NCBI GenBank assembly: GCA_964619055.1
Contig: CAZUDB010000002.1
Span: forward strand, 29,723-93,722
Length of the DNA stretch: 64,000 nt
Direction: 5' to 3'
Source: an uncultured Rhodospirillaceae bacterium
GTDB taxonomy: Bacteria; Pseudomonadota; Alphaproteobacteria; Rhodospirillales; Defluviicoccaceae
A program made the position numbers and the translations under genes. Below are positions 4,692 through 36,154 of this stretch, in pieces. Within the stretch, counting starts at the first letter, position 1, and each line of letters starts with the position of its first letter. The notes beneath the pieces were generated by a model that ran no database searches, had not been told where the DNA came from, and saw only the letters and a list, made by a program, of their open reading frames with translations.

Positions 4692-6135
<1,444 letters not shown>

Positions 6136-6139
<4 letters not shown>

Positions 6140-9877: not shown

Positions 9878-9887
9878 GACACCTCCA

Positions 9888-10976: not shown

Positions 10977-10977
10977 G

Positions 10978-17107: not shown

Positions 17108-17589
17108 CGCTCACTGCTTCCCGAGCCAAGGGGCAGCGTCGCGCCGCGCTCGCGGGCACGGCTGAATGCCTCCTGCCGGCGAAGGTCGTAGGCGCCGGGA
17201 TTCCAGATCTGCAGCCGCCGGCCGCGGCCCACGAACAATGCCTCAGCGTCGAGGGCCGCGTGCTCAATCAAGTCCGCCGGCAGGACAATCCGCCCCTCGG
17301 GATCGAATGGCAGCGGATGGGCACTTTCCAGAACGATAACGTTCAAGTCGTCGCCGTCGTCGGAGAACAAGTCCTGATTGTCGATGCTGTCGGCAATCCG
17401 CGCCATGTCGGCTTCGCTGCACCCTTCGATGGCCGGCCCCTTAAAGGACGGAAAGGCATAAATGCCAGTAAAAGCTTGCGGCTCGCGCGGGGTGAGGTCG
17501 CGGGCAAAGGCCTCCCGAAAGGGCTTGGGCACCGAGACCCGCCCCTTGCGATCGATCCTATTGATGTGACGGCCGACAAGAAGTGCCAT
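17104..17589 (-). CDS. mraZ: Transcriptional regulator MraZ
   Basis: ORF 17104..17727 was trimmed to MALLVGRHINRIDRKGRVSVP at 17589. It has two SpoVT/AbrB-like halves (DRKGRVSVP and DPEGRIVLP) and is the first gene of the dcw cluster. Confidence 0.85.
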   Translation of the reverse strand: MALLVGRHINRIDRKGRVSVPKPFREAFARDLTPREPQAFTGIYAFPSFKGPAIEGCSEADMARIADSIDNQDLFSDDGDDLNVIVLESAHPLPFDPEGRIVLPADLIEHAALDAEALFVGRGRRLQIWNPGAYDLRRQEAFSRARERGATLPLGSGSSER

Positions 17590-17707
17590 CCCGGCCCTGC
17601 CTGAGTCCCATTCCGAATGCCCGCGTTCGTGCGCCCGCTTTTTGAACAGTGGGCTGCCGAGGTGGCACTCGGTTCTCGCCAAAAGGGTATTGTCGTTTGG
17701 GATATCA

Positions 17708-17732
17708 TGGGATTTTTTGGGCGTCAATGGGA
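17708..17732. promoter_or_regulatory. Putative MraZ operator: three TGGGN repeats with 5-nt spacers
   Basis: The plus strand reads TGGGA-ttttt-TGGGC-gtcaa-TGGGA (17708-17732), about 120-140 nt upstream of the mraZ start. Further TGGGT (17759) and TGGGA (17829) copies follow. The spacing matches the TGGGN-N5 repeat operator described for E. coli MraZ. The orientation relative to the gene is uncertain. Confidence 0.4.
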
Positions 17733-20113: not shown

Positions 20114-20929
20114 CTAACGCAACTGGCGTTCTTTTTCGATCGCCTCATAGGCGGCGTTGATCGACGCCATTTTTTCGTTGGCGAGCTGCACGGCCTCCTC
20201 CGGGAGTCCTTTCGCCACCAGAATGTCCGGGTGGTTGAGACGGATCAGGCGCCGCCAGGCCTGCTTCACCTCATCGTTGGAGGCCGTTGGGGCCACTTCG
20301 AGCACTGAGTATGGGTCCAACGTCATGGTGGCATTGAACATGGCGCTGATCCGCTCGAATGGCCGACCGCCGAGTCCGAAGATATCTGCCACCTGCCGGA
20401 GGAACGCCATTTCGGCCGATGAAATCACGCCATCAGCCTTGGCAATGTGGAACAGGCCGGCCAGCAACTCCTCCAGCACCTGGGGCTCGCCGTGGAACAC
20501 GGTGGCGATCTGCTCGGCATAGGGTTCAAAGCCGTGAGCGTCGCGCTTGGCCTGATTAAAGATGGCGCCGACTGTCTTCAGGTCCTCCGGCGCAATCTGG
20601 AAGACATCCCGGAACGCATTAATCTCAGCGCGGGTCACACGGCCGTCGGCCTTGGCCATTTTGGCGGCGAGCACGACGATTCCGATCCCGAACGCGGTTC
20701 GACGGGCATCGGGACCACTGGCCCCGGGTGAACGTCGCGCCGGTCCGGGAGGATCGCCGGGTCCCCAGCCACCACCTTCGCCACGAAGAAGCTCTAGCGG
20801 GTCGGCCCCGACCTGTTCACTGCGAATCCGATCGTAGGCATGGCCCGCCACGCCGCCAATAACCGCACCCAGCGGGCCGCCGAGCCAGAACCCGCCGACG
20901 CCACCGATAACTTTGCCCCAAATGCTCAT
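20114..20929 (-). CDS. djlA: Co-chaperone DjlA (TM + TerB-like domain + C-terminal J domain)
   Basis: ORF 20114..21007 was trimmed to MSIWGKVIGGVGGFWLGGPLGAVIGG at 20929. The C-terminal J domain reads DPYSVLEVAPTASNDEVKQAWRRLIRLNHPD. Confidence 0.8.
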   Translation of the reverse strand: MSIWGKVIGGVGGFWLGGPLGAVIGGVAGHAYDRIRSEQVGADPLELLRGEGGGWGPGDPPGPARRSPGASGPDARRTAFGIGIVVLAAKMAKADGRVTRAEINAFRDVFQIAPEDLKTVGAIFNQAKRDAHGFEPYAEQIATVFHGEPQVLEELLAGLFHIAKADGVISSAEMAFLRQVADIFGLGGRPFERISAMFNATMTLDPYSVLEVAPTASNDEVKQAWRRLIRLNHPDILVAKGLPEEAVQLANEKMASINAAYEAIEKERQLR

Positions 20930-21186
20930 AACAGCCGCCGATATCAGCCGCCCAAGTCGGTGCGGGAAAGTCCCGCGTCCGATCGTTGCGCCCACATAGG
21001 CGGCCACTCACCATAGCCGGTCCCGCGCCCACAGCAAACCACGGTTGGCGATTCCGGTCGCGACCATGGTCCGGACACGCCTGCAGGCGCGCGAAGGGCA
21101 AAGTGCGCCAAGCATTGCGCAGCGCGCGATTCGATCAAACTTTCCCGGCAGTTGACGTCGCTTGAGAGCGCACCGGTGCAGTGCGG

Positions 21187-21825
21187 TTACGGGCGGTGAA
21201 GCTGGTTGTCGAGCACCTTGTCCTCGTAGGTCTGAACGACATCCTGCAGTTCGACGCGATAGGCGCCGATGAACGGCTCGCGATATCCTAGAACATCTCC
21301 GAAGCTGACCGATCGCAGTCGATCGAGAACCTCGTTGCCGACCCGGAACAGCTCCCCATTTGCGGCCTCGCAAGCCTCGAGTTGGCTGGTGGTTTCGGCC
21401 AAATCTGTGGTCAGTACTTGGCGTTCCACCTCCTTCTGGCGGGCCACGTCCGCCACCTCAGTGTACGCGATTTGCCACTTTTCGTTGTTTTCCAGAAGGG
21501 TGTTGCGATACTCACCTTCCTGCTTCATACGGTCGTTGAATTCCTTCAAAGCGGCCTCATAGCGCACCTCGACCTGAGCCACGCGGTTCTCGGCCGCGCG
21601 CGCAACGTCCTCGATGGATGCCTCCAGCTGTTGCACTTGGCTTTGCAAGGCGGTGCGCTCGTTTTGCAGTGTGGTCACCTGCGCATTGGCTTGGCGAAGG
21701 GCTTGTCGCAACCGCTGCTCCAGCTCCGATTGGGCGGTCACAGCGGCGGGCCAAGCCAACAGCCCGGCCAGCAGCACGGCAGCCGAAAGAAGTACCAACG
21801 GTCGCGAGAGCCTAGAAGCGCGCAT
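21187..21825 (-). CDS. Secreted coiled-coil protein of unknown function (last gene of the TonB/TpsB operon)
   Basis: 212 aa with a signal peptide (LVLLSAAVLLAGLLAWPAAVTAQ) followed by heptad-rich Q/E/R/L sequence. Its start overlaps the porin stop by 14 nt. Confidence 0.6.
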   Translation of the reverse strand: MRASRLSRPLVLLSAAVLLAGLLAWPAAVTAQSELEQRLRQALRQANAQVTTLQNERTALQSQVQQLEASIEDVARAAENRVAQVEVRYEAALKEFNDRMKQEGEYRNTLLENNEKWQIAYTEVADVARQKEVERQVLTTDLAETTSQLEACEAANGELFRVGNEVLDRLRSVSFGDVLGYREPFIGAYRVELQDVVQTYEDKVLDNQLHRP

Positions 21826-23665
21826 TAAGGTCGACCTGTATCACGTCAATGGACAGGGGCGGGCCTGCGATTTCCTCACTGCTCAACCACCGCGCCGCCA
21901 GCCAGGTGTTGTCAGCGATGCCAAGCTGGCCGCGGAGAAAGAAGCCTTTGGCATTGGTGCCGCCCAAGTGAAAATCCGAGTCTGTAAAGCCGTCAACCGC
22001 CGCGTCGCTTTCCAGATACTTGTAGCCGATACCAAACTTCCAGTCCCACAACTCATCAATTTTCGGATACCCGACGGAAAGCTGCACAGTGAAACCTTGG
22101 GAGCCTACATCAGCGTCCTCCACGGGCACAGTCTGGCTGTTATGAACAAGAACAAGCCCACCGCTTGAGGCCAGCTTGTTCTTATTGAACGACAGATTAT
22201 TGACGTACTCGGCATCAAAAATCACGTGGATTGGAGTAAACTTCGTATAATCAAACTTGAGATTGAGTGCCAAGATGTTGAAACCCGTGGCAAGGCCGAA
22301 ATATTGCGGATTGCCAAACAGCGCTTGGTCCGCGGGAGATATGTTTCGCAGGGCAAAGAGGGTGTTACCCTTTTGAGAGAATTGCTGCCGCGTGATATCC
22401 GTCGGGCAATCGTCGTTTTGGAACGCCAGTTCGCAATCGCCAAGCTTGCCTCTCATATTGCTGAAGAAGTAATTAGCGATACCAAAGCCGACTTCGAGGT
22501 CTTCCCGTACATCGAAATCGACACCGATTTGTGATCCAATTAAATAGCGGTTGCGGCTGTCTTCTTTCTCGAGTCGAACGGACGAGAAGTTGAAGGCGGT
22601 GTTGTAAACCGGAAATCCGCCCACCGTGAAAAAGGGTCGTATCTGCGGGGTGGCTTCGAATTGGCCGCTGACCGAGAGGCCGTCAAACTGCACGTCGTCA
22701 TCCCAGATCAGGTTTGTGCGGAAGAACGGGTTCGGGGCCCGGCCCACGTCGATCGTCACCTCATCGATGGGCTTGAAGCGGAGATAGGCCTGATCCAGCC
22801 AGATCTGATACTTGCTGAAGTTACCGCCTTGGGCTCGCGAAGAGGCCGAGCCAAGGGTTTGGTTCGTCGACACCGGGCCGTTGTCGCTACCCGTCGCCAG
22901 TCTGATCCGGGTGGTCACGGGGTCGGCGATCTTGGCTTCCAGACCGACGCGAGCGCGAAGGCGGAAGAGCTGACGGTCCTCAGTCGTGTTGAATGTGGGC
23001 GGAATATCGACAGCCGCCGTATTGAATGGTGTCGGTACGAGGATCGGGTCGCCGGTATTAATCTCGTTCACATCGATAAAGTTGTTGAAGTTCTCGCTTC
23101 CAAAAAAGACCTGTTCGAAGCGGAAGCGAACATCGCCAAACAGCTTGATCCTGGAGGTCCACTCCGGAAACGAGTCCGGGGCGGCCCAACTTTGCGCGCG
23201 GGCCTCGATGAGCACGTCCTGCTTGATATCTTCTGTGATCTGGCGTTTGACCGGTTCAGGAATATAGGGAACGCGTACGGTGCCCGGGTCGGCCAGAACC
23301 ACGCCCACCGGCCGGCCCGCAGCGGCCTCCGCCTGCGCTTGTGCCAACAGGGCCTGTGCTGTTGCCTCGTCGATTACCTTGTTCTGCACGAGAAGGCGGA
23401 TCAGGTTCATGACAACCGTCTCGGACTGCGATGGCGAAAAGGGCGTTGGCGCCACCGGAGGTTCCGTCGGCGGCAGGCTCAATCCGGGTGGCTCAAATGG
23501 CTCCGTGATCACGGTGCTGGGATCGGGGATGCCTTGCCCATATCCCGGCGTGATCGTGGCGATGAAAAGAAGCCCGGCGATCGTTCCGGTCCACACCCTC
23601 AGACCGCACGTTCCTGGCTGCTGACGTCGGTCCTTGCCCGTCGCCGGCCGTCGTTGTTCGGCCAT
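21812..23665 (-). CDS. Putative outer-membrane porin-like beta-barrel protein
   Basis: ORF 21812..23761 was trimmed to MAEQRRP at 23665, which has a GAGAGGGGAG SD. It has a hydrophobic leader, a Pro-rich segment, a helical LIRLLVQNKVIDEATAQALL segment and then long alternating aromatic/polar beta-strand patterns. The C-terminus ends in ...DLNARF. Confidence 0.6.
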   Translation of the reverse strand: MAEQRRPATGKDRRQQPGTCGLRVWTGTIAGLLFIATITPGYGQGIPDPSTVITEPFEPPGLSLPPTEPPVAPTPFSPSQSETVVMNLIRLLVQNKVIDEATAQALLAQAQAEAAAGRPVGVVLADPGTVRVPYIPEPVKRQITEDIKQDVLIEARAQSWAAPDSFPEWTSRIKLFGDVRFRFEQVFFGSENFNNFIDVNEINTGDPILVPTPFNTAAVDIPPTFNTTEDRQLFRLRARVGLEAKIADPVTTRIRLATGSDNGPVSTNQTLGSASSRAQGGNFSKYQIWLDQAYLRFKPIDEVTIDVGRAPNPFFRTNLIWDDDVQFDGLSVSGQFEATPQIRPFFTVGGFPVYNTAFNFSSVRLEKEDSRNRYLIGSQIGVDFDVREDLEVGFGIANYFFSNMRGKLGDCELAFQNDDCPTDITRQQFSQKGNTLFALRNISPADQALFGNPQYFGLATGFNILALNLKFDYTKFTPIHVIFDAEYVNNLSFNKNKLASSGGLVLVHNSQTVPVEDADVGSQGFTVQLSVGYPKIDELWDWKFGIGYKYLESDAAVDGFTDSDFHLGGTNAKGFFLRGQLGIADNTWLAARWLSSEEIAGPPLSIDVIQVDLNARF

Positions 23666-23767
23666 CCGTACTCCCCTCTCTTGTCCTGACCGCCCGCTGG
23701 CCGCGGGCGAATTGGTCCCGTCAAGGTTGGTTTGACGGCGGCGCACGATGGCACCGCCCATGGCGAT

Positions 23768-24493
23768 CTATCCCGCGGTTGCGGCCCGCGCTGCGGTGCG
23801 GATTTTGACGTGCACCAATCCCGAGGACGACAGCAGGTCCTGGGGCGGGGGCCGGTCCAGGACCACGCCTTGCAAGGCCTGTCCCGCCAGCACCGTATCG
23901 ATTTCCGGAACGCCCGTGCTTTCCAACAGCTGGACACGGACAATTCGTCCCGATGAATCAACCCAAACATCCATTCGGGTCCCCCTGAACTGCGAAAAGC
24001 GCAGCTTGTCGTGGCGGCGGATGGCCGATGTAATGCTGCGCTGGACGACGCCGGCATACCACCGCTCGGCCGTTGCGCCGCCCTGACCATCGCGGCCAAG
24101 GCGCGACCCACCGGGCCGGCCGACGAGCCCGAACGCATCACCGGGTCCGGTTCCTTCGGCATCAATGCCCAGATCGCCGGCTGGCGGCGGCTCGTCCAAC
24201 TGCTCAATGGGCTCGGGCTCCAGGGGCTCCGGCTCCTGAATTTCGGGCTCGACGATTTCCTCCTCCTCGGGGGGCGGCGGTTCCTCCTCCACTTCGGGCG
24301 GCGGCGGCGGCGGTGGAGTGTTGAGAAGCGTCACCATCTGCTCTGGCGGGGGGGCTGTCGGCTGCGAGTCCTGAAGGGTCGAGACGAAGACCAGCAGTAG
24401 GGCAGCGGAACCTCCGCCCAAGACCAGCGTGATCAAGCCGAGCATATTGCGCTGCAGCCAGTTGCCTCGCTGTTCCTCGTCCGTGTCCAGCAT
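23768..24493 (-). CDS. tonB: Energy transducer TonB
   Basis: 241 aa with an N-terminal TM, a Pro/Glu-rich rod (PPPPPPPEVEEEPPPPEEEE...EPEPLEPEPIE) and a C-terminal TonB_C-like domain. Confidence 0.8.
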   Translation of the reverse strand: MLDTDEEQRGNWLQRNMLGLITLVLGGGSAALLLVFVSTLQDSQPTAPPPEQMVTLLNTPPPPPPPEVEEEPPPPEEEEIVEPEIQEPEPLEPEPIEQLDEPPPAGDLGIDAEGTGPGDAFGLVGRPGGSRLGRDGQGGATAERWYAGVVQRSITSAIRRHDKLRFSQFRGTRMDVWVDSSGRIVRVQLLESTGVPEIDTVLAGQALQGVVLDRPPPQDLLSSSGLVHVKIRTAARAATAG

Positions 24494-24522
24494 GGCTATA
24501 AACGTCCCGTCCTCGCCTGACC

Positions 24523-24930
24523 TCAGCCGCTTGTGAGGGCCTTGGTGGCCAAACCGATTTTGGTGATGTCCAAGCGCGCGAGCAGGTCGAGAACATCAAT
24601 GACAAGCTGATACGCGGTGTCACCGTCGCCCTTGACAACCACTGGGAACTCCCCCTCGGCCGCTTGGGCCGTACGAAGGCGGCTTTCCAGTTCGCTCAGC
24701 GTCACGGCATAGGTGTCGAGGAAGATTGTCCCATCCCGCGTCACCACGATCGCCTTTGTGCTCGGCTTACCAAGGTTTGGTGCCTCGCTCGCTTTCGGCA
24801 AATCGACCCGGATGCCCTGGATCGCTACCGTTGTCATGATGATGAAAATGATCAGCAACACGTAGGCAAGATCGAGCATCGGCGTGATGTTGATCTCGTC
24901 GTACGGTTTCTCTTCATCCTGCTGTTTCAT
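24523..24930 (-). CDS. exbD: Biopolymer transport protein ExbD/TolR
   Basis: 135 aa. The sequence EINITPMLDLAYVLLIIFIIM followed by a periplasmic domain is the typical ExbD architecture. Confidence 0.85.
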   Translation of the reverse strand: MKQQDEEKPYDEINITPMLDLAYVLLIIFIIMTTVAIQGIRVDLPKASEAPNLGKPSTKAIVVTRDGTIFLDTYAVTLSELESRLRTAQAAEGEFPVVVKGDGDTAYQLVIDVLDLLARLDITKIGLATKALTSG

Positions 24931-24935
24931 CGGAT

Positions 24936-27032
24936 CTATTCCGCGGCAATGCGATCGTCGTTCGCATAACGATCGGGAGCGAACGTCTCGGCGAGCCGGG
25001 TGACGAACTCATCGATGAAGACCTGCATGTCCGCCTGGACGGTCTTGATGCGCGTCAGCAGGTAGTTGTACCCAAACAGGGCGGGAATGGCGACGGCGAG
25101 ACCGGCGACCGTGGCTGTGAGGGCCGCCGCAACACCCGGGGCGATGGCATTGATGTTGACTTCTCCCACAGCGGCGATGCCGGCAAACGTGATCATGACG
25201 CCGATACAAGTGCCGAATAGCCCGAGAAATGGTCCGCCGGAGATGGCGATGGTCAGCATCACCATCATGCGGTTGAGCTTCTGGGATTCCATTACCATCC
25301 GGCCGTCGATCCGTGCACGCACGGCGGCTAGCATCTGGGGGCTCAGGATCAGGCCACTCTGAGCGTCCGCCTGTTGGCGGCTGCGGCGATTGACGCGTCC
25401 ACGCAACTCGAGACAGCCGGACGAATAAAGCCGGTAAAGCGATGATGACCGCAGTTTTCGTTTGGTTTTGGCTGGCAGCTCCTGGCCGCCGCCTAGAAGC
25501 TGGTCCGGGTCCATGGTTTCGAGCAGATCGAGATCATTGGCGACCTTCTCGAACGTGGCGCGAAACACGTCGTTGGCTTTGTCTTGCCGGCTCACGAACA
25601 CGCCTTTGGCATACATAACGACCCAACTGATGACCGCCATGACGAACAGGATGGCGATAACCACCCATCCGTCAAAGGTCACAGATTTGAGGATGATGGC
25701 GAAGTAACCAGTGAGCCAGCTTGAGGATTCCTCTTCGACGGCAAGCGTGACGAGACCGGTCTCCGTTCCTTCCGAAGCGACCATGCCCGCAATTTCCGTG
25801 GGCGTGCGCGCCACCCGTGCAATGCGGAGCTCGTCGATCTCGCCAACAAAGCCCGTTGTGCTGGGTGTGGCTTGGGCAGGCTGCGTAGTGGGCGAGGGGG
25901 TGGCTGCCGTGGCGGGCGGTGCCGTCGTTGGGTCGCCCGCCTCCGACGTGGCTGGTTCGGCAGCGGCGGTGTCCGCCTCAGGGGTCTCTGGACTTGGTTC
26001 TGCCGTCGCGTCGTTGACCTCAGCCGGTGCCGCTGCCACGTCTGCGGGTGCTGCCGCTACGCGTGGCGCCGGCGCAAACGGGTCTCCGCCAAGGGTGATC
26101 GGGCCGCCGATGCCCGGGAACGTGGCCGTTACAGTGGCGGTTGGTTGGCCATCCACGTAAAGACTAACCTCATCCTCGGCACCCGTAACCGCCACGTGTT
26201 GCCACGCTCCGGGCGCCAGCGGCACATCCGACACGATGCGGATTGGACCGTCCGGTCGGCCGATCTCGACGAACGGCGTCGCGCCGTCCACACCGATCAA
26301 AAAAGAGGCCGAGCCGAAGCGACGACTAAGGACGATGGCGTTCTCGCGTCCCTCATCGACCTTCAGCCACATCGAGACCGTCAAAGGCGCGCCGTCGGGA
26401 AAGCTGAGCCACTGCGTGGCCGGGATTTCGATCGTTGTCGCCCCGTCAAACTTGGCAGCGTTACCGATCTGGCCGGCGGGACTAGCCAATCCCGGCGTCG
26501 CGGCGTGATTGCCGTACTCTGTCGAGTCCAGTGGCGGCTCACCTAACTCGGAGAAGTGATAGACCAGGACCGTATCGGCATCGAAGGTCTGAGCCGGATT
26601 TCCCACGGCCGCAGCTTCCGGATTGCCATAGTACACCCAGAGGTCTTGGGTGGTTCCCGGCTGGATATCGCGGCCGTCCAGCCAAACGAGCCCGATGCCC
26701 TGCAAGGCATCATACTTTTCAATGTGAAAGGTGACGGGGGTCTCTGCATCGTCGGCGGTGACAAAGCGGATGTCGATGCCGTTTTCATGGGCTCGGAAGA
26801 AGGGAAACGCCGGATCGGACAGCCGGACCAAAAGCGGTATGCGCTCAATGGCCCCATCAACGGGCGGAGTGACGGCTGTGGTGTCGACCGTAATACGCTT
26901 TCGCAGCGGCCAAGCATCGTCCCACCAAGCATGGGCGACGCTCGTTAGCGCCATGCCGATCGCCAGGACTAACCAAAACAATCGCTGGGCGGCGACGGCC
27001 CGCGTGCGGTCCATAATACGATGGCTTGCCAT
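24936..27032 (-). CDS. exbB: MotA/TolQ/ExbB proton-channel protein with N-terminal periplasmic DUF2341 + LamG (concanavalin-like lectin) modules
   Basis: 698 aa. After the signal/TM it reads WWDDAWPLRKRITVD, the typical DUF2341 start. A LamG-like region follows (LSFPDGAPLTVSMWLKV...WQHVAVTG...VSLYVDG...GEIDELRIARVART), interrupted by an Ala/Pro/Thr-rich tract. Then come three TMs with the MotA_ExbB core (GGPFLGLFGTCIGVMITF...AAALTATVAGLAVAIPALFGYNYL). Confidence 0.8.
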   Translation of the reverse strand: MASHRIMDRTRAVAAQRLFWLVLAIGMALTSVAHAWWDDAWPLRKRITVDTTAVTPPVDGAIERIPLLVRLSDPAFPFFRAHENGIDIRFVTADDAETPVTFHIEKYDALQGIGLVWLDGRDIQPGTTQDLWVYYGNPEAAAVGNPAQTFDADTVLVYHFSELGEPPLDSTEYGNHAATPGLASPAGQIGNAAKFDGATTIEIPATQWLSFPDGAPLTVSMWLKVDEGRENAIVLSRRFGSASFLIGVDGATPFVEIGRPDGPIRIVSDVPLAPGAWQHVAVTGAEDEVSLYVDGQPTATVTATFPGIGGPITLGGDPFAPAPRVAAAPADVAAAPAEVNDATAEPSPETPEADTAAAEPATSEAGDPTTAPPATAATPSPTTQPAQATPSTTGFVGEIDELRIARVARTPTEIAGMVASEGTETGLVTLAVEEESSSWLTGYFAIILKSVTFDGWVVIAILFVMAVISWVVMYAKGVFVSRQDKANDVFRATFEKVANDLDLLETMDPDQLLGGGQELPAKTKRKLRSSSLYRLYSSGCLELRGRVNRRSRQQADAQSGLILSPQMLAAVRARIDGRMVMESQKLNRMMVMLTIAISGGPFLGLFGTCIGVMITFAGIAAVGEVNINAIAPGVAAALTATVAGLAVAIPALFGYNYLLTRIKTVQADMQVFIDEFVTRLAETFAPDRYANDDRIAAE

Positions 27033-28670
27033 CTACAAACCAGCCGAGAGCGTGAAAACCACGTTCTTCTCGTCCTCTTCCTCAAGGCCGACCCGGGTAA
27101 TGGGGAAAGCAATGTCGACGGAACCGCTGACCGTATCGAACAGATCAAATCGTGTGCCAATGCCGGCGCTGAGCAGCCGGAAATTGGCGATTTGCTCGGG
27201 TAGCGGATCGATCACCTTTGCGTCGGCCCCATCCAAAAATGCATAAAAGCGCCACTCATCGACAACATCCAGGCCAGCCAAGTCGTTGACGATCGGAGCA
27301 AGGGAAGGAGCGCGCAATTCGAAGCCGCCGAAAATGCCCTCGTCGGCAAGCGCGGATGACTCGAAGAACCCGCGCACTGTGGTCAGCCCACCGAGAGATA
27401 GCTGCTCATTGATGATCAAGGGGCTACCGGCAAGTTGGCCGCCGACCCGCCCCTGGATTTGAATGTCGTAGGGTAAGGTGTGCGTGTGCTCAAGTCCAGC
27501 TTTTAGATATATGAATGACGGATTTGCGCCAAATCGGTTGCGCTGCACTTCTGTGGCATCGCTGCCCAATTGCCCAAACCCGAAGATAGCATCGACACTA
27601 AATAATGTAGATGAGTTGAGCGTGGTCAGTGCTGCAAAATATGAAAGGGTTCCTGGAAAGTACTTTACGGGGACATCATCTTGTGTGATTTCAAATTCGT
27701 CGGTGAATTCTTTATATTGCAGCGTTACTGAAACATTGTGGAAGAAATCGGGCGCTCCCGGCAAGTCCCAGATCGCACGGGTGCCGATGGAGAAGCCGTC
27801 GCCGATTACGCTAGCATCACCTGCAGACACGACATCGCTGTCCGACGAAAAGCCGAATGCTTCGACGCTTAGGCCTGGAACGATTGGAATGGGCGCGGTG
27901 TAGGACGCGGAGAAGAACTCCGAGTCCAGTCTCCGTTGCGGTGCAACCTGGTAAAACAACCGCAGCGAGTGATCGAGCTGAAATAAGTTATCGTAGCGCA
28001 CCAGCGCGTTGAGGCGGAGCGGTTTGGTCGTGCTGGTGTTGCGGTTGTTTAGTTCCAAGCGGGCGTGTAGCGGCAGGCGTTCATCGACAACCAAGTCCAC
28101 GTCGAAGCTCCGGGCTTCTACGTCCGGCTGCCCTGGAACGAACTGAACTTCGCGGTCACCTGTGTTGAGGGCGGCAATCTCCAGGATCGCCTGTGACAGG
28201 TCGGGGACTGAGCCTTCGGCGAGCGAGGGCACACCATCCTTGATGGCTTGCGGTGTTGTGTAGCGGGCGTTTCGCACGCGCAACCGTCCCACCCGAAACT
28301 CGGTGACCTCGATCCGGATCACGCCCGAGCGAAAGTCCTGGTCCAGCGGCACTGTCACCGCGACCACCTGACGTCCGCTATCCAGGTAAGCCTCTTCGAT
28401 GGATGCCCGCGCCGCTTCCACATCCGCGTCCGTTTTGCCTGGGCCGAGGAAAGGATAAACAATCGTCTCGATCAGCGGGGCGGGGAGCGCCGTGACGCCC
28501 GTGACAGCCACCTCGTAAATGTCAAACTGCGAGGAAGCCAAGGCGGTTTCGGGCTGTGCGCGCGTACTGCCATTCGCGAACGCGGTCGCACACAATACGA
28601 GGACCGCAATGCACAACGACCGGGCTGACGCGGTCCTAACTTGAAGCGGCATGGCCTTAATACCCCGCAT
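27033..28670 (-). CDS. ShlB/FhaC/HecB-type two-partner-secretion transporter (TpsB, Omp85 superfamily)
   Basis: 545 aa with a signal peptide and a POTRA-like region (YEVAVTGVTALPAPLIETIVYPFLG...IRIEVTEFRVGRLRV), followed by a 16-strand-type barrel region. Its stop abuts the exbB-like start (27033/27032). Confidence 0.72.
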   Translation of the reverse strand: MRGIKAMPLQVRTASARSLCIAVLVLCATAFANGSTRAQPETALASSQFDIYEVAVTGVTALPAPLIETIVYPFLGPGKTDADVEAARASIEEAYLDSGRQVVAVTVPLDQDFRSGVIRIEVTEFRVGRLRVRNARYTTPQAIKDGVPSLAEGSVPDLSQAILEIAALNTGDREVQFVPGQPDVEARSFDVDLVVDERLPLHARLELNNRNTSTTKPLRLNALVRYDNLFQLDHSLRLFYQVAPQRRLDSEFFSASYTAPIPIVPGLSVEAFGFSSDSDVVSAGDASVIGDGFSIGTRAIWDLPGAPDFFHNVSVTLQYKEFTDEFEITQDDVPVKYFPGTLSYFAALTTLNSSTLFSVDAIFGFGQLGSDATEVQRNRFGANPSFIYLKAGLEHTHTLPYDIQIQGRVGGQLAGSPLIINEQLSLGGLTTVRGFFESSALADEGIFGGFELRAPSLAPIVNDLAGLDVVDEWRFYAFLDGADAKVIDPLPEQIANFRLLSAGIGTRFDLFDTVSGSVDIAFPITRVGLEEEDEKNVVFTLSAGL

Positions 28671-28795
28671 CGGCCAAGGACGGCTCGGCGGTTGAGCGAG
28701 ATGGATGCCAAGATGGGCGGATCACGTTCACGCCCTTTGGCCAGGGCTGTCTAAACCTGTTTTCGTGCCCATACAAGCGTATGTTCACTCATAAT

Positions 28796-28813
28796 ATGAC
28801 AATTGTGTTACAG
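28796..28813 (-). promoter_or_regulatory. Candidate Pho box for the minus-strand TpsB/TonB operon
   Basis: The minus strand reads CTGTAAC-acaa-TTGTCAT, scoring 5/7 and 6/7 against the CTGTCAT direct-repeat consensus with 11-bp phasing. It lies about 125-140 nt upstream of the tpsB-like start. No convincing -10 follows it. Confidence 0.3.
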
Positions 28814-29185
28814 TAACGTGTACTTCGAGGGTATTAACCTTCATGTTGAACACGTTGTGATCATAGTAAACTGATTCGCGCCGTATATATTTAATAGCTT
28901 AACATACTCGACAGGTTGGTCTTTTCTTGGCTACTGCGTCGCAAAGTGCCTTGCCATCATAGTATAGTAATTCCGGGTGATCGCATGCTAATGGAAGAGG
29001 ACATCAAGCTTCATGCCATGATGTAACCGTGGCGGAAGCTCGCGCTTTCGATCACAGACTGTACAACCCAAGTGGCGTTCACCGCGGTTGTGTTTTCTTT
29101 TGACATTAAATCACCCCCATTTGGGGAATTCTTCTGATATTGTTTTCTGAGCATCGGCTACACTGTCGCGACATTTTAAACTGAC

Positions 29186-29231
29186 TTATCATAAACCTGT
29201 CACCGAGATGTCATCGAGTCTGCAGTAAGAT
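29186..29231 (+). promoter_or_regulatory. Pho box (three 11-bp-phased CTGTCAT-like repeats) plus -10 element upstream of the PstS-like gene
   Basis: TTATCAT (29186), CTGTCAC (29197) and ATGTCAT (29208) are spaced exactly 11 bp apart with A-rich spacers. TAAGAT at 29226-29231 lies 11 nt after the last repeat. Extra CTGTCGC (29163) and CTGACTT (29181) copies sit upstream. Confidence 0.55.
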
Positions 29232-29416
29232 GCTGACTGCGGATGCGCGATTCAGCGGGTGGATTCACTGAAAAACTCAATCGCGACCTTGGTCACGCAA
29301 TGTTGTGTTGAAAAGCAAAGTCATCGTGGGCTGAGCGAATGTTTATCAGCGACGGCAGGCTGAATTGCGATCTGCACTTGGACGATGAATTGAATTTTGG
29401 TCAACTTGGGAGAAAT

Positions 29417-31270
29417 ATGATGGATCGCAAGGTCCTTTTGGGTTCGGTCTGTGCCGCCGCTGTGGTAGTGGCAATGGGGTCGAACACGCCCAGCGCTGTT
29501 GCGCAAGAGCAGATCTTTGGCGGTGGCGCCTCATTGCCGTCCGTCGTGGTCCGCAAGCTCATGAATTGCTTCGCCATTCCCATTGAAAATACCAGCGGCA
29601 CACCCAGTTTCAACGATCCGTTCTGCTCCATCCCGCGGGGTGCGAACGCGTACGTGAGTTACGCGACGGTGGGCAGCAGCCGTGGCCGTGAAGGCTTCGT
29701 TGCTGAAGATTCCCGCGCCCTGGCCCGCAGCCAGCGTCCGAGCACGGGGGTCGTCATTCCGTACTCCAGCACGGCGGGTTCCGACTACGGCACGGACATT
29801 CCGTCGCCTCCGGGCTTCGTGGATGGTGACAACACGCTGCCCAACGGTGTTCTGGTGTTCGACGACAACCGCAACACCTTCAGCCCGGACAGCAACTTCG
29901 ACGACCCGGTCACGGGCCCTCAGCAAACCGGCCTTGCCGGCCTTGGCTTTGACCCTGCGCCTGGCCCGAACCCGGTCGGCTTCTGGCGTCTTCATTACAC
30001 CACCTCCGAAGAGCCCATCTTCCAAAGCACGGCCCAAGGCGGCAGCGGCGTCTTCCGCCAAACCTACGATTGCTACGAAGGCGATGCGAGCAACAACCCC
30101 AACGGTCGTTGCAATCGCAACAAGGAAGCGACCAACGGCAAGCCGTTGCAGATCCCGTTGCTGGCTGTTGGCGTGACGATCGCCTACAACGTGCCCGAGT
30201 TCTGTGATCAGCCGGCCGATGTGGACCCCAACTGCACCAGCCGTTCTCCGTTGCCGCGTCCGCCGTTCCCGGTGAAGGACCCCACACAGCCGGTTCCGAC
30301 TCCCAGCGGCCAAAACCGCCTCGTCATCTCCGAAGGTGCGGCGTGCGGTCTGTTCACCGGCAAAATCGACAGCTGGTCTCACCGCTCGATCTCACAGTAC
30401 TTCAACAACCCGCGTCTGCCGGATGAGGCCGTGACTGGCGTCATTGTCCGTGCAGATGGTAGTGGTACGCAGTTCCTGTTCTCGTCCTGGCTGGATGCGG
30501 TCTGCGACGGTATCGGCAACGTCAAGTTCAACGGTGGTGCCAACGCGTCACCGAATTACGACCAGGACGTGGGTATCTACGAAGTGCCCGGTAACGAGGG
30601 TGTCGCCAACATCGTAGCCGCTAATGACTGGTCGGTTGGCTTCATGACGCCGGGCCTGACCGACCTCTCATCGGACGAGATTGACAGTGCCGGATTCACG
30701 GCGACCGAAATCGGAACGACGGGCAACACGCTGACCGACGCGGGCGGAGTGAAGGACACGCCGGTCTCGGCTCGCATCATCAACCGTGCCGGTAAGGCCC
30801 AACTTCCGACATCTGAGAACGTCCGCGAAACCATCTCAGTCAATTCGGAGCCCCCGCGCTGCAACACGAACGCTGGCGGAAACGTCGTCGCCGGTGAGCC
30901 GTGCTTGGAGCCGGAGAATTGGGGCTTGGCGTTCGATGTGGTCGATCCGGTCGGTCGGGACACGTTCTACCCGATCGTCGGCTTCAACTGGCTGAACCTC
31001 TATGAATGCTATCAGCGTCGTCCCGTGGCGCAGATCATTCAGGAGTTCCTGACGTTCTACTACCGCCAAAACAGGTTCCAAATCACTCGGATCCTGGAAA
31101 ACAACGGCTTTGCCAACCTGCCCGCCGACTGGCAGAGCGCCGTTGAAACCATCATCGTTGCCGGCAACACCCGGCCTTCCGGTGTTGCGGCCTTCGGTAA
31201 CGTGAACGCCGATTGCCTTGGCTTGGCCGGTGCTGGCCGCGGCTGGCAGCCCGGTTTCCCGCCGACCTGA
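29417..31270 (+). CDS. Large secreted PstS-family (phosphate-binding, PBP type 2) protein with long insertions
   Basis: ORF 29339..31270 with start at ATGATG 29417 after a GGGAGA SD. Signal peptide MMDRKVLLGSVCAAAVVVAMGSNTPSAVAQ. PstS-like motifs are GGGASLPSVV, VGSSRGREGF and VRADGSGTQFLFSSWL. It is 617 aa, against about 320-370 aa for ordinary PstS. Confidence 0.65.
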   Translation: MMDRKVLLGSVCAAAVVVAMGSNTPSAVAQEQIFGGGASLPSVVVRKLMNCFAIPIENTSGTPSFNDPFCSIPRGANAYVSYATVGSSRGREGFVAEDSRALARSQRPSTGVVIPYSSTAGSDYGTDIPSPPGFVDGDNTLPNGVLVFDDNRNTFSPDSNFDDPVTGPQQTGLAGLGFDPAPGPNPVGFWRLHYTTSEEPIFQSTAQGGSGVFRQTYDCYEGDASNNPNGRCNRNKEATNGKPLQIPLLAVGVTIAYNVPEFCDQPADVDPNCTSRSPLPRPPFPVKDPTQPVPTPSGQNRLVISEGAACGLFTGKIDSWSHRSISQYFNNPRLPDEAVTGVIVRADGSGTQFLFSSWLDAVCDGIGNVKFNGGANASPNYDQDVGIYEVPGNEGVANIVAANDWSVGFMTPGLTDLSSDEIDSAGFTATEIGTTGNTLTDAGGVKDTPVSARIINRAGKAQLPTSENVRETISVNSEPPRCNTNAGGNVVAGEPCLEPENWGLAFDVVDPVGRDTFYPIVGFNWLNLYECYQRRPVAQIIQEFLTFYYRQNRFQITRILENNGFANLPADWQSAVETIIVAGNTRPSGVAAFGNVNADCLGLAGAGRGWQPGFPPT

Positions 31271-35170: not shown

Positions 35171-36154
35171 ATGAACGTCATTCACGAGCCTCGGTTGCAA
35201 TTTCGATCCATCTGGATCTCGGACATTCACCTCGGAACCCGAGGCTGCAATGCCGACATGCTGCTGGATTTTCTTCGGCAGACGGAATCGGATTACCTCT
35301 ACCTGGTCGGCGATATCATCGATTTCTGGCGGCTTCGCAAGACGTGGTATTGGAAACAAACTCATAATGACGTTATTCAAAAAATCCTTCGAAAAGCCCG
35401 CAAAGGAACGAGGATAATCTACATCCCCGGAAACCACGACGAGAATTTTCGGGACTTTACAAATCACAGATTCGGACGTGTTGCCGTCCTCCATGACACC
35501 TTTCATACCATGGTAGATGGTCGTAAATTTCTGGTCATGCATGGCGACCATTTCGATGGTGTCGTCAAATATGCGAAATGGCTCGCTTATCTTGGCGATA
35601 CGGCTTACGTCTGGCTGCTGAACGTGAACACATGGATGAATTATGTTCGGCGAAAGCTGGGTTTTTCATATTGGTCGTTGTCTGGGTATTTGAAGCATAA
35701 GGTCAAAAACGCGGTTGAATTCGTCAGCAACTACGAAAATGCTGTTGTTTCGGAGGCACGGCGCCGTGGCGCCGACGGCGTGATTTGCGGCCACATTCAC
35801 ACGGCCGAGATCCGCGAAATAGACGGGATTGTCTATTGCAACGACGGCGACTGGGTTGAAAGTTGCACAGCGTTGGTGGAGCATTTCGACGGACGGCTTG
35901 AGATCCTACGTTGGTCCGAAGTTTTCGACGTTCGCCAAGCTGAAGGGGCCGCTGGGTCTGAACCGGCAAAGCCTGCTGTTGCCGAGCACGGGATGGCCAG
36001 GGGCTCAGCCTCGGTCCTTGCTGTGCAGCGACTACTGTTGGCGGAAACTGAACGCGCCGGGACGGCGAGGGTTGATCAAGAATGCGGATCTGCATCGTCT
36101 CGGATGCCTGGTTTCCTCAAGTCAATGGCGTTGTTCGCACGCTCCACACGTTAA
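35171..36154 (+). CDS. plcP: LpxH-like calcineurin-type metallophosphoesterase; likely phosphate-starvation phospholipase C PlcP
   Basis: WISDIHLGTRGC, YLVGDIIDFW, IPGNHDE, MHGDHFD and CGHIHTAEI are the metallophosphoesterase motifs. The gene is immediately followed by, and overlaps, a GT4 gene. This is the plcP-agt arrangement known in Alphaproteobacteria. Confidence 0.62.
   Translation: MNVIHEPRLQFRSIWISDIHLGTRGCNADMLLDFLRQTESDYLYLVGDIIDFWRLRKTWYWKQTHNDVIQKILRKARKGTRIIYIPGNHDENFRDFTNHRFGRVAVLHDTFHTMVDGRKFLVMHGDHFDGVVKYAKWLAYLGDTAYVWLLNVNTWMNYVRRKLGFSYWSLSGYLKHKVKNAVEFVSNYENAVVSEARRRGADGVICGHIHTAEIREIDGIVYCNDGDWVESCTALVEHFDGRLEILRWSEVFDVRQAEGAAGSEPAKPAVAEHGMARGSASVLAVQRLLLAETERAGTARVDQECGSASSRMPGFLKSMALFARSTR

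What the first reader, a model, noticed from the sequence alone, without database searches (positions are those of the whole stretch)
21187..31270. TpsB-type Omp85 + lectin-fused ExbB/ExbD/TonB + porin + coiled-coil operon facing a giant PstS-like exoprotein: candidate undescribed phosphate-starvation outer-membrane system
**Seen in the sequence.**
- Six minus-strand genes are packed with gaps of 0-100 nt or overlaps. Junctions are 27033/27032, 24936/24930, 24523/24493, 23768/23665 and a 14-nt overlap at 21812-21825.
- In order they encode a ShlB/FhaC-type TpsB transporter, an ExbB carrying periplasmic DUF2341+LamG modules, ExbD, a Pro/Glu-rich TonB, a ~617-aa porin-like barrel ending NARF, and a signal-peptide coiled-coil protein.
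- The window has no TpsA-like gene (no TPS domain or haemagglutinin repeats). It also has no plug-containing TonB-dependent receptor.
- The only nearby secreted candidate partner is the divergently transcribed 617-aa PstS-like protein.
- The shared 745-bp AT-rich intergenic region has Pho-box-like repeats facing both ways.

**Established knowledge.**
- TPS and TonB systems can cooperate, as in Haemophilus HxuCBA.
- As I recall, the Pho-regulated pdtA/pdtB TPS genes of P. aeruginosa PAO1 sit next to exbB2-exbD2.

**Inference.** I cannot match the combination of TpsB, lectin-fused ExbB, porin and double-size PstS homologue to a described system. It may be a Pi-starvation-induced, PMF-energised machine. 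It could display or secrete a phosphate-binding scavenger and import its ligand across the outer membrane.
Basis: partly seen in the sequence, partly recalled or inferred. Interest (0 to 1): 0.8.

Follow-up and report, generated by a model that had tools for sequence, protein, structure and literature searches.

The report
Phosphate-starvation envelope module with DING protein
This is a compact copy of a widespread but functionally unstudied phosphate-starvation gene cluster already known from Pseudomonas aeruginosa (pdtB-exbB2-exbD2-tonB4-PA0696-PA0697), here paired with an unusually large DING-type phosphate-binding protein instead of the usual giant secreted adhesin.

Summary
Six tightly packed minus-strand genes encode a TpsB, a DUF2341+LamG-ExbB, an ExbD, a TonB-like protein, a Porin_5 barrel and a signal-peptide coiled-coil protein. 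They face a 617-aa PstS-like gene across a 746-bp AT-rich spacer that carries Pho boxes. The window has no TpsA and no TonB-dependent receptor.

The operon is not undescribed. It is the orthologue, gene for gene, of P. aeruginosa PA0692-PA0697. That cluster belongs to the PhoB/sigma-VreI regulon and is strongly induced by phosphate limitation, but its mechanism has never been worked out. I found the same six genes in the same order in 61 of 80 species genomes from Alpha-, Beta- and Gammaproteobacteria, Verrucomicrobiota and Anaeromyxobacter. A giant TpsA lies within 10 kb in 35 of 49 full-length loci.

The "double-size PstS" is a single DING-family phosphate-binding fold with about 240 residues of insertions. 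Its subfamily is rare, and in 8 of 9 informative contexts besides the window it sits inside such clusters. Three loci also carry a TpsA, so it looks like an accessory, not a proven TpsB cargo.

Verdict: a new variant of a known but uncharacterised system. Phosphate-starvation control is likely. Coupling between the DING-like protein and the cassette is plausible. Export by the TpsB is unsupported.

The parts
27033..28670 (-). PdtB-like TpsB (Omp85 type Vb transporter), first gene of the operon
   Evidence: Pfam ShlB and POTRA_2. Best solved relative is CdiB 6wim, with the L6 motif SLGG..VRGF conserved. phmmer E=4e-100 to the P. paraeruginosa orthologue in L056. The stretch between signal peptide and POTRA1 is short, variable and low-complexity across the family.
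24936..27032 (-). ExbB2-like proton-channel subunit with N-terminal periplasmic DUF2341 and LamG domains
   Evidence: Pfam DUF2341, Laminin_G_3 and MotA_ExbB. It scores higher against TolQ than ExbB models, below both cut-offs. At least 592 species genomes encode a relative. The L056 orthologue has the same architecture.
24523..24930 (-). ExbD2-like / TolR-like subunit
   Evidence: Pfam ExbD 1.6e-26. Best NCBIfam model is TolR, 89 bits, below cut-off.
23768..24493 (-). TonB4-like protein: N-terminal membrane anchor, Pro/Glu-rich and Gly-rich linker, TonB-type C-terminal domain
   Evidence: Family alignment A4. The profile matches HasB 2m2k at 1.1e-5, TonB at 4e-3 and TolA at 0.1. Orthologues hit Pfam TonB_2. 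The anchor lacks a conserved His.
21812..23665 (-). PA0696-like Porin_5 outer-membrane barrel (617 aa from the ATG at 23665; the ORF extends to 23761)
   Evidence: Pfam Porin_5 7e-179. No solved relative by sequence. It has a conserved N-terminal motif NxT[VI]NLIxLLVxxGV...QAExEA followed by VRVTYVPExVKxQIRDEVKQEV. It ends in ...NARF.
21187..21825 (-). PA0697-like periplasmic coiled-coil protein with signal peptide and a conserved C-terminal domain
   Evidence: Alignment A6. Only generic coiled-coil matches in PDB. E=6e-17 to the L056 orthologue.
28671..29416 (.). Shared divergent promoter region, AT-rich
   Evidence: GC 0.469 against 0.611 for the window. No Rfam family. No sigma-70 consensus promoter.
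28796..28813 (-). Pho-box-like site facing the TpsB operon, about 125 nt upstream of its ATG
   Evidence: CTGTAACACAATTGTCAT, 3 mismatches. Similar sites lie 60-110 nt upstream of TpsB in L011, L020, L025, L030 and L031.
29186..29214 (+). Three Pho-box half-sites at 11-bp spacing facing the DING-like gene, about 200 nt upstream of its ATG
   Evidence: TTATCAT-aaac-CTGTCAC-cgag-ATGTCAT.
29417..31270 (+). Enlarged DING-family phosphate-binding protein (617 aa) with signal peptide
   Evidence: AF2 model with pLDDT 80 and pTM 0.83. Foldseek top hits are PfluDING, S. maltophilia PBP and HPBP, E 6e-17. The family profile scores 258 bits on DING against about 155-160 on E. coli PstS. RADGSGT, VGSS and GGGAS motifs and four DING cysteines are conserved. 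Only 7 library representatives at E<=1e-30.

Best explanation
The region is a compact, directly PhoB-controlled copy of the Pdt/ExbB2 envelope module, known from P. aeruginosa as pdtB-exbB2-exbD2-tonB4-PA0696-PA0697. It is transcribed divergently from an enlarged DING-family phosphate-binding protein.

**Shown**
- All six proteins are homologous to, and collinear with, the Pseudomonas genes and with the same cassette in dozens of other genomes.
- The seventh protein has a single PstS/DING fold with an essentially intact phosphate-binding motif set.
- Its subfamily is found almost only in such loci.
- Pho boxes face both ways in the spacer.

**Inferred**
- Under phosphate limitation PhoB switches on both transcription units.
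- A TolQR/ExbBD-like proton motor carries a ring of periplasmic DUF2341-LamG domains. Through the TonB4-like protein it delivers energy to one or both outer-membrane barrels (TpsB and Porin_5).
- The coiled-coil protein is a periplasmic structural partner.
- The DING-like protein leaves the cytoplasm by Sec. It acts outside the inner membrane as a high-affinity binder of phosphate or a phosphorylated ligand, and its function depends on the cassette.
- The TpsB's normal client is a giant PdtA-type TpsA. In this genome that gene is either elsewhere or lost.

I consider delivery of the scavenged ligand through the TonB-energised Porin_5 more likely than export of the DING-like protein through the TpsB. 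Neither step is demonstrated.
For: **Homology and synteny**
- phmmer E-values against P. paraeruginosa L056: TpsB 4e-100, ExbB 2e-124, ExbD 1e-37, TonB 1e-20, Porin_5 5e-122, coiled-coil 6e-17. The Pfam architecture is identical.
- 61 of 80 species loci have all six genes in order. The 80 loci were selected on the ExbB protein, so this is not an unbiased census.

**Phosphate control**
- Three Pho-box matches in 746 bp, against 0.07 expected.
- Pho boxes 60-110 nt upstream of TpsB in five other loci, against about 0.2 expected.
- PA0692-PA0699 are up in sigma-VreI/PhoB conditions.
- PA0696, PA0698 and PdtA are among the most Pi-limitation-enriched proteins.

**DING identity**
-.

**Linkage of the DING-like subfamily to the cassette or its TpsA**
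- L001, L003, L116/L117, L118, L120, L018 and L031, L034, L085.
- The position varies: divergent from TpsB, first gene before TpsB, or between YbjN and TpsA. That argues against simple inheritance of one arrangement.
- Control: 29 of 32 loci from the metagenome scan, mostly ordinary PstS, have neither cassette genes nor a TpsA.

**TpsA as the usual client**
- TPS-domain giants lie within 10 kb in 35 of 49 full-flank loci.
- pdtA/pdtB are reported as a functional TPS pair.
- Llamas et al. note genomes in which tpsA genes lie apart from the tpsB-exbBD-PA0696 cluster.
Against: - No experiment exists for any step in this organism, and the source genome could not be retrieved. Whether a TpsA or an Hxc-type type II system exists elsewhere is therefore unknown.
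- In Pseudomonas the DING protein is secreted mainly by Hxc, not by PdtB. The neighbourhood link could reflect shared regulation only.
- Only 3 of the 80 cassette loci from species genomes carry the DING-like gene, so it is dispensable for the cassette.
- One relative (L002) does not have TpsB upstream.
- Larger PstS-like proteins of a more distant type occur without the cassette (L086 and L087).
- The residue equivalent to PstS Asp56 is Glu in the window protein. I placed this by motif, and the ligand could differ from orthophosphate.
- Porin_5 has no recognisable plug or proven TonB box.
Confidence: 0.6

Rival explanations
1. One reading: the TpsB exports or displays the PstS-like protein as a non-canonical cargo that takes the place of a TpsA, powered by the TonB-like motor.
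For: - There is no TpsA within about 20 kb on the coiled-coil side and 33 kb on the DING side of the locus in the window, and none within 10 kb in the DING-like loci L018 and L034.
- No type II secretion system is visible in the window.
- DING proteins are extracellular in Pseudomonas, so some export route is needed.
- This TpsB subfamily shows no conserved sequence where FhaC-type transporters carry their N-terminal plug helix. That comparison rests on my own knowledge of FhaC.
Against: - The DING-like protein starts its binding-protein fold right after the signal peptide and has no TPS domain.
- It has four conserved cysteines, expected to form periplasmic disulfides. That is awkward for a transporter that, by established knowledge of type Vb secretion, handles unfolded chains.
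- L031, L116/L117 and L118 carry the DING-like protein, the cassette and a TpsA together, and L003 carries the DING-like protein, the cassette tail and a TpsA start.
- Pseudomonas DING uses Hxc.
Confidence: 0.12
2. Co-regulated neighbours only. The cassette serves solely a PdtA-type TpsA encoded elsewhere. The DING-like protein is an independent Pho-regulon scavenger, periplasmic or secreted by a type II system, that merely shares a Pho-regulated island.
For: - In PAO1 and SBW25 the island also holds Hxc, and DING secretion depends on hxcR.
- The DING-like gene is absent from 77 of the 80 cassette loci.
- Its position in the locus is variable.
- Other phosphate-stress candidates lie nearby in the window: a metallophosphoesterase and a glycosyltransferase at 35171-37098.
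Against: - A subfamily this rare (7 representatives at E<=1e-30 among 1.84 billion) occurs in cassette or TpsA loci in 8 of 9 informative contexts, across divergent lineages (window identity to the relatives is 23-36% for most of them) and in different positions.
- In several of these no full type II system is visible; only an isolated GspK-like gene appears in L018 and L116.
Confidence: 0.25
3. The cassette is a Tol-Pal-like envelope-maintenance device for phosphate-starved cells, with no transport role. It would consist of a TolQRA-like motor, outer-membrane anchors and a CpoB-like coiled-coil protein.
For: - ExbB and ExbD score better against TolQ and TolR models than against ExbB and ExbD models.
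- The last gene is a signal-peptide coiled-coil protein, like the N-terminal part of CpoB (the CpoB comparison is from my own knowledge).
- PpiC-type isomerase and lytic transglycosylase genes follow the cassette in many loci.
Against: - All Tol scores are far below the family cut-offs.
- There is no TolB or Pal homologue.
- The C-terminal domain of the TonB-like protein is nearer HasB/TonB than TolA.
- The constant partners are a secretion-type Omp85 and, usually, a giant secreted TpsA.
Confidence: 0.05

Closest known systems
P. aeruginosa PA0692-PA0697 (pdtB-exbB2-exbD2-tonB4-PA0696-PA0697), part of the PUMA3/sigma-VreI and PhoB regulon
   Same: All six proteins are homologous, in the same order and with the same domain architecture, including the DUF2341-LamG ExbB and the Porin_5 barrel. 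The cluster is linked to phosphate starvation. Its function is still unknown there too.
   Different: The window lacks pdtA, phdA, vreAIR, hxc, PA0698 (YbjN) and PA0699 (PpiC isomerase). Control seems to be direct, through Pho boxes, with no ECF sigma factor. The neighbouring phosphate-binding protein is a 617-aa DING-like form transcribed divergently.
DING proteins and LapA/LapB of Pseudomonas (PfluDING/Psp, PA14_55410, PA0688/PA0689)
   Same: PstS-type fold nearest to DING structures. Conserved phosphate-binding motifs and four cysteines. A mature N-terminus QIFGGGASLP that resembles DINGGGATLP. Induced by phosphate limitation and placed next to a PdtA-type TpsA in SBW25.
   Different: About 240 extra residues in insertions, including a roughly 95-residue Asp/Asn/Pro/Gly-rich segment predicted disordered. 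Glu replaces the Asp56-equivalent residue. No Hxc type II system nearby. Sequence identity to solved DING structures is only about 17-18%.
Haemophilus HxuCBA and Serratia HasA-HasR-HasB (a secreted binder plus an outer-membrane receptor with a dedicated TonB paralogue)
   Same: As a working analogy: a two-partner secretion gene beside TonB-system genes. A dedicated TonB paralogue whose C-terminal domain is closest to HasB. A secreted-type high-affinity binding protein in the same locus.
   Different: There is no plug-containing TonB-dependent receptor; the candidate receptor is a Porin_5 barrel of unknown structure. The ligand is phosphate-related, not haem. Nothing has been shown experimentally. 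This is an analogy only, not a claim of membership.
Canonical two-partner secretion (FhaC/FhaB, ShlB/ShlA, CdiB/CdiA)
   Same: The TpsB has the POTRA_2 and ShlB domains and the L6 VRG[FY] motif. Related loci encode TPS-domain giants.
   Different: The TpsB is always fused into an operon with a proton motor, a second barrel and a coiled-coil protein. Its Pfam scores are weak (about 54 bits). No TpsA lies in this window.

Membership tests
PdtB-ExbB2-ExbD2-TonB4-PA0696-PA0697 cassette (P. aeruginosa PA0692-PA0697) | All six proteins homologous to the Pseudomonas ones | tested here: met
   phmmer against P. paraeruginosa L056 gives 4e-100, 2e-124, 1e-37, 1e-20, 5e-122 and 6e-17.
PdtB-ExbB2-ExbD2-TonB4-PA0696-PA0697 cassette (P. 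aeruginosa PA0692-PA0697) | Same gene order and strand, tightly packed | tested here: met
   61 of 80 genome loci share the order.
PdtB-ExbB2-ExbD2-TonB4-PA0696-PA0697 cassette (P. aeruginosa PA0692-PA0697) | ExbB carries DUF2341 and LamG; the fifth gene is Porin_5 | tested here: met
   Window, L056.
PdtB-ExbB2-ExbD2-TonB4-PA0696-PA0697 cassette (P. aeruginosa PA0692-PA0697) | Induction by phosphate limitation through PhoB | tested here: inconclusive
   Pho-box matches are enriched in the spacer. Expression cannot be measured here. It is shown for the Pseudomonas orthologues.
PdtB-ExbB2-ExbD2-TonB4-PA0696-PA0697 cassette (P. aeruginosa PA0692-PA0697) | Adjacent PdtA-type TpsA and VreAIR (PUMA3) signalling genes | tested here: not met
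   None in the 64 kb. These are also absent from 14 of 49 full-flank loci, so they are frequent companions, not part of the six-gene core.
Two-partner secretion (type Vb) | TpsB with two POTRA domains, a 16-strand ShlB barrel and the L6 VRGY/F motif | tested here: met
   POTRA_2 and ShlB. CdiB alignment with SLGG..VRGF. The number of POTRA domains and strands was not modelled.
Two-partner secretion (type Vb) | Cognate TpsA with an N-terminal TPS domain | tested here: not met
   No TPS-like ORF in the window at E<=10. The rest of the genome is not available.
DING family of phosphate-binding proteins | PstS-type two-lobe fold, closer to DING than to PstS | tested here: met
   Foldseek top 8 hits are DING-type proteins (PfluDING, S. 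maltophilia PBP, HPBP), E 6e-17 to 2e-14. Profile score is 258 bits on DING against about 155-160 on E. coli PstS.
DING family of phosphate-binding proteins | Phosphate-binding residues (PstS T10, S38, D56, R135, S139, G140, T141 equivalents) | tested here: inconclusive
   R345, S349, G350 and T351 align to the RADGSGT motif of PstS. S87 (VGSS) and the GGGAS motif are conserved in the family. I assigned these PstS equivalents by motif and from memory of PstS numbering. The D56 equivalent reads as E198 in the window. Ligand binding was not measured.
DING family of phosphate-binding proteins | Mature N-terminus DINGGG and two disulfides | tested here: inconclusive
   The N-terminus is QIFGGGASLP, a partial match like LapA's VTGGG. 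Four cysteines (C310, C363, C531, C600) align with the PfluDING cysteines.
DING family of phosphate-binding proteins | Size about 38-40 kDa; secretion by the Hxc type II system | tested here: not met
   617 aa with insertions. No type II genes in the window.
TonB-dependent uptake system | ExbB-ExbD-TonB energiser | tested here: met
   The motor scores nearer TolQR models and the anchor lacks the conserved His.
TonB-dependent uptake system | Outer-membrane receptor with a plug domain and a TonB box | tested here: not met
   No Plug or TonB_dep_Rec protein in the window. Porin_5 has only a conserved N-terminal motif of unknown role.

The most novel reading that the evidence does not exclude
The cassette is a "phosphophore" system. 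The DING-like protein reaches the cell surface or the medium, captures phosphate or a phosphorylated or mineral-bound ligand, and docks on the plug-less Porin_5 barrel. The dedicated TonB4-ExbB2-ExbD2 motor then uses the proton-motive force to strip and import the ligand, or to recycle the binder. This would be analogous to HasA-HasR-HasB for haem. The TpsB/TpsA pair, where present, would provide the extracellular scaffold. It would be the first TonB-type energised outer-membrane uptake route for phosphate, and it would give the long-puzzling DING proteins a defined pathway.
Probability: 0.18. Interest if true: 0.85.

Novelty: new variant of a known kind. Interest (0 to 1): 0.55.

Why it matters
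The PA0692-PA0699 genes are among the most strongly phosphate-starvation-induced genes of P. aeruginosa, and they have been annotated as "uncharacterised putative TonB system" for more than fifteen years.

- The same six-gene cassette is conserved across at least four phyla. It is therefore a general envelope machine, not a Pseudomonas virulence oddity.
- A rare enlarged DING subfamily is embedded in such loci at several different positions, often without any full type II secretion system nearby. That offers a concrete, testable link between two unexplained items: the ExbB2/TonB4/Porin_5 module and DING proteins.
- The compact version here has no TpsA, no ECF signalling genes and apparently direct Pho boxes. 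It is the simplest genetic context in which to ask what the motor and the two barrels do.

Tried and rejected
- **AF2 with the four close homologues** failed (pLDDT 29). It succeeded only with a 54-sequence alignment.
- **Tandem-duplicated PstS** rejected. The model and Foldseek show one fold with insertions.
- **Metagenome scan with the DING-like alignment** returned 32 distant relatives, mostly ordinary PstS, and none of the close relatives. It served only as a control.
- **L002's upstream ORF** is not a TpsB fragment, so L002 is not counted as linked.
- **Source organism** could not be found. There was no exact-match contig for P0001 and no names in the cluster tables. I could not look for a TpsA or Hxc elsewhere in the genome.
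- **Spacer features**: no Rfam family, no sigma-70 consensus promoter, and only weak two-copy repeats.
- **Porin_5 and the coiled-coil protein** have no informative solved relatives by sequence.
- **Lipoprotein reading of the DING-like signal peptide** rejected. The Cys lies inside the hydrophobic core and is absent from homologue P0004.
- **Type II secretion as a constant companion** rejected. Only isolated GspK-like genes appear in L018, L024 and L116.
- **PhoBR beside the cassette**: the pair in Prosthecobacter L047 is suggestive but below the model cut-offs, and the pair in L026 is not PhoB-specific.
- **Literature**: I found no paper that gives a function for exbB2-exbD2-tonB4, PA0696 or DUF2341-ExbB.

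Full report
**1. Observation**

Six minus-strand genes run from 28670 down to 21187, with a 0-nt, 5-nt and 29-nt gap, about 100 nt before the porin's likely ATG at 23665, and a 14-nt overlap.

Pfam and NCBIfam confirm every domain call:
- ShlB and POTRA_2 in the TpsB.
- DUF2341, Laminin_G_3 and MotA_ExbB in the ExbB.
- ExbD.
- Porin_5 at E = 7e-179.
- A weak PstS/PBP_like_2 match for the plus-strand protein. It starts at 29417 behind a good ribosome-binding site.

The Pro/Glu-rich protein has no Pfam hit. An alignment of 17 family members shows a membrane anchor, a Pro-rich and Gly-rich linker and a roughly 90-residue C-terminal domain. The profile of that alignment matches HasB at 1e-5, TonB at 4e-3 and TolA at 0.1.

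The window has no TPS-domain protein. There are zero hits at E<=10, while the same queries find 31 control loci. It also has no plug-type receptor. The long upstream operon is the dcw cell-division cluster. Other large ORFs are transporters, glycosyltransferases and hydrolases.

The 746-bp spacer has GC 0.469 against 0.611 for the window. It contains three of the window's five matches to the Pho-box pattern, where 0.07 are expected; none of 3000 composition-matched shuffles reached three. One site faces the TpsB operon. Three half-sites at 11-bp spacing face the other gene.

**2. What the six-gene operon is**

A paper on the P. aeruginosa sigma-VreI regulon lists PA0692 pdtB (TpsB), PA0693 exbB2, PA0694 exbD2, PA0695 tonB4, PA0696 (putative porin) and PA0697. 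These are followed by PA0698 (YbjN family) and PA0699 (PpiC isomerase). All are induced together, and the TonB system is described as "still uncharacterized" (PMC7035377; PMC2729926).

A scan of one genome per species, using an alignment of LamG-ExbB homologues, found at least 592 relatives. I examined the best 80 loci.
- phmmer with the window proteins shows all six genes, in the same order, in 61 of the 80. The loci were selected on ExbB, so this is not an unbiased census.
- Most of the other loci are cut by contig ends.
- The taxa include Bradyrhizobium, Rhodopseudomonas, Hyphomicrobium, Tepidicaulis, Magnetospirillum, Burkholderia, Achromobacter, Janthinobacterium, Pseudomonas, Alloalcanivorax, Dyella, Steroidobacter, many Verrucomicrobiota and an Anaeromyxobacter.
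- The P. paraeruginosa locus L056 matches every window protein, with E from 6e-17 to 2e-124. Its Pfam architecture is identical, including DUF2341 and LamG on ExbB2 and Porin_5 for the PA0696 homologue.

The operon is therefore a member of a known, widespread cassette whose mechanism has not been characterised.

**3. Usual companions of the cassette**

I clustered the flanking ORFs and annotated representatives.
- A giant protein with a TPS secretion domain lies directly before the TpsB or directly after the cassette tail. It occurs in 35 of 49 loci with full 10-kb flanks.
- A PpiC isomerase occurs in 20 of 49, and a YbjN protein in 11 of 49. Both are minimum counts, because the ORF filter sometimes kept a spurious antisense ORF.
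- FecR, an ECF sigma factor and a VreA-like STN+TonB_C protein occur mostly in Bradyrhizobium-like loci.

pdtA/pdtB are reported as a functional two-partner pair under PhoB and PUMA3 control. Llamas et al. already noted genomes in which tpsA genes lie apart from the tpsB-exbBD-PA0696 cluster. The window lacks all of these companions.

**4. The PstS-like protein**

The subfamily is rare. Only four relatives appeared among 5.8 billion clustered proteins. An exhaustive HMMER pass over 1.84 billion representatives gave 7 at E<=1e-30 and 50 at E<=1e-10.

A 54-sequence alignment gave a usable AlphaFold model, with pLDDT 80 and pTM 0.83. Residues 117-130 and 134-187 are predicted disordered.
- Foldseek places it with PfluDING, the S. 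maltophilia phosphate-binding protein and human HPBP, at E 6e-17 and target TM about 0.74. PstS proteins follow.
- The family profile scores 258 bits on DING and about 155-160 on E. coli PstS.
- The RADGSGT, VGSS and GGGAS motifs are present, and the four DING cysteines are conserved.
- The mature N-terminus QIFGGGASLP resembles DINGGGATLP.
- The residue at the PstS Asp56 position reads as Glu, placed by motif and by my own knowledge of PstS numbering.

It is therefore one DING-type fold with about 240 inserted residues, not a doubled PstS.

**5. Is the DING-like protein tied to the cassette?**

Contexts of relatives:

| Locus | Arrangement |
|---|---|
| L001 | Same seven-gene layout as the window |
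| L003 | Coiled-coil fragment, PpiC, YbjN, DING-like, start of a TpsA |
| L116/L117 | TpsA (divergent), then DING-like, TpsB, ExbB, ExbD, TonB, Porin_5, coiled-coil, PpiC, YbjN |
| L118 | TonB, Porin_5, coiled-coil, PpiC, one small gene, DING-like, TpsA |
| L120 | DING-like, YbjN, TpsB, ExbB |
| L018 Aliidongia | DING-like upstream of the cassette |
| L031 Rhizomicrobium | Two DING-like copies upstream, plus a TpsA downstream |
| L034 Acetobacteraceae | DING-like divergent from TpsB |
| L085 | DING-like followed by a TpsA start |

- L002 lacks TpsB upstream.
- L119 and L121 are too short to tell.
- Of the 32 loci from the metagenome scan, which are mostly ordinary PstS, 29 contain no cassette gene and no TpsA. 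The exceptions are L085 (TpsA start) and L086/L087, which carry larger PstS-like proteins without the cassette.
- Conversely, only 3 of the 80 cassette loci hold the DING-like gene.

The literature gives the Pseudomonas counterpart. In SBW25 the order is hxc, psp (DING), then a 4083-aa haemagglutinin-domain gene. PAO1 has the DING-like lapA and lapB (PA0688, PA0689), numbered just before pdtA (PA0690). Psp is induced by phosphate limitation and secreted mainly through Hxc (PMC2225411).

The DING-like protein is thus a recurrent accessory of the Pdt island. It is not a substitute for the TpsA in general. It may be the only visible exoprotein in compact loci like this one.

**6. Phosphate link beyond this window**

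- Pho-box matches lie 60-110 nt upstream of TpsB, in the right orientation, in L011, L020, L025, L030 and L031. About 0.2 such matches are expected by chance.
- PA0696, PA0698 and PdtA are among the most enriched proteins under phosphate limitation (PMC9769906).
- A PhoB/PhoR-like pair sits beside the cassette in Prosthecobacter L047. PhoB is the best model but the score is below its cut-off.

**7. Mechanism**

Shown: homology, synteny, the fold and the Pho boxes.

Inferred: PhoB-driven divergent transcription. A TolQR/ExbBD-like proton motor whose ExbB subunits carry periplasmic DUF2341-LamG domains. A HasB/TonB-like protein that spans the periplasm to the TpsB and/or the Porin_5 barrel. A periplasmic coiled-coil partner.

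Two features are worth testing.
- Porin_5 has a strongly conserved N-terminal segment, NxT[VI]NLIxLLVxxGV...QAExEA, then VRVTYVPExVKxQIRDEVKQEV. It could be the contact point for TonB4.
- This TpsB subfamily has only a short or low-complexity stretch before POTRA1. By my own knowledge of the structure, FhaC-type transporters carry a plug helix there.

I rank the explanations as follows.
1. A functional coupling in which the DING-like protein works with the cassette in phosphate scavenging. Within this, ligand delivery through the energised porin is more likely than DING export by the TpsB.
2. Co-regulated neighbours only.
3. The TpsB exports the DING-like protein.
4. A Tol-like envelope-maintenance role.

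**8. Novelty and score**

The cassette is known, named and uncharacterised. The DING-TpsA neighbourhood is also published. Three things are new here:
- the breadth and strictness of the cassette's conservation;
- the recognition of an enlarged DING subfamily that lives almost only in these loci;
- this minimal, apparently directly PhoB-controlled, TpsA-less arrangement.

I rate it a new variant of a known kind, with interest 0.55. A specialist would not be astonished. The locus does make the function of exbB2-tonB4-PA0696 and of DING proteins more directly testable.

Noticed in passing
window 35171-37098 (+): A calcineurin-type metallophosphoesterase followed by a GT4 glycosyltransferase, about 4 kb from the DING-like gene. 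This pairing resembles, from my own knowledge, the PlcP/Agt phosphate-starvation lipid-remodelling pair of marine Alphaproteobacteria. No Pho-box match at up to 3 mismatches lies upstream.
   Followed up: partly
window 691-17727 (-): A complete-looking dcw cell-division and cell-wall cluster: MraW, FtsI-type PBP, four Mur ligases and FtsA. The locus therefore sits in core chromosome, not on an obvious island.
   Followed up: partly
window 20114-21007 (-): A DjlA-like co-chaperone (TerB and DnaJ domains) lies directly downstream of the coiled-coil gene. It is not conserved next to the cassette elsewhere.
   Followed up: partly
window 40473-50428: An 886-aa ABC exporter, a 682-aa HAD/acid-phosphatase-like protein and four consecutive glycosyltransferases. 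There is a local GC dip to 0.50 at 42001-44000. This may be a glycolipid or exopolysaccharide locus.
   Followed up: no
window 21812-23665 and Porin_5 genes of L001-L083: The Porin_5 family carries a highly conserved N-terminal periplasmic segment, NxT[VI]NLIxLLVxxGVLxxxQAxxLIxQAExEA. An Ala-rich variable linker follows, then VRVTYVPExVKxQIRDEVKQEV..ENWAxP. Its role is unknown. It is a candidate TonB4 contact or plug.
   Followed up: partly
window 27033-28670 and TpsB genes of the loci: In this TpsB subfamily, the stretch between the signal peptide and POTRA1 is 10-50 residues of variable, low-complexity sequence. No conserved amphipathic helix is visible where FhaC-type transporters have their plug helix.
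   Followed up: partly
L068, L078, L079, L080, L065: In Methylovulum, Uliginosibacterium, Hydrogenophaga and two uncultured proteobacteria, ExbB-ExbD-TonB-Porin_5-coiled-coil occurs without an adjacent TpsB. In L068, L079 and L080 a giant (over 3200 aa) protein of the TpsA cluster directly precedes ExbB.
   Followed up: no
L018 7042-7944, L024 607-1383, L116 20768-21506: An isolated GspK-like (T2SSK_1st) gene sits next to the cassette or the DING-like gene, with no visible remainder of a type II system.
   Followed up: partly
window 29417-31270, protein residues about 97-193: The largest insertion in the DING-like protein is rich in Asp, Asn, Pro and Gly and is predicted disordered. It is not conserved in length among relatives. 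It might bind cations or mineral surfaces, but that is speculation.
   Followed up: no
L006 17789-19630 and similar Bradyrhizobium loci: After the PpiC isomerase and YbjN genes, many alphaproteobacterial loci add a lytic transglycosylase (SLT) and two conserved proteins with no Pfam match.
   Followed up: no
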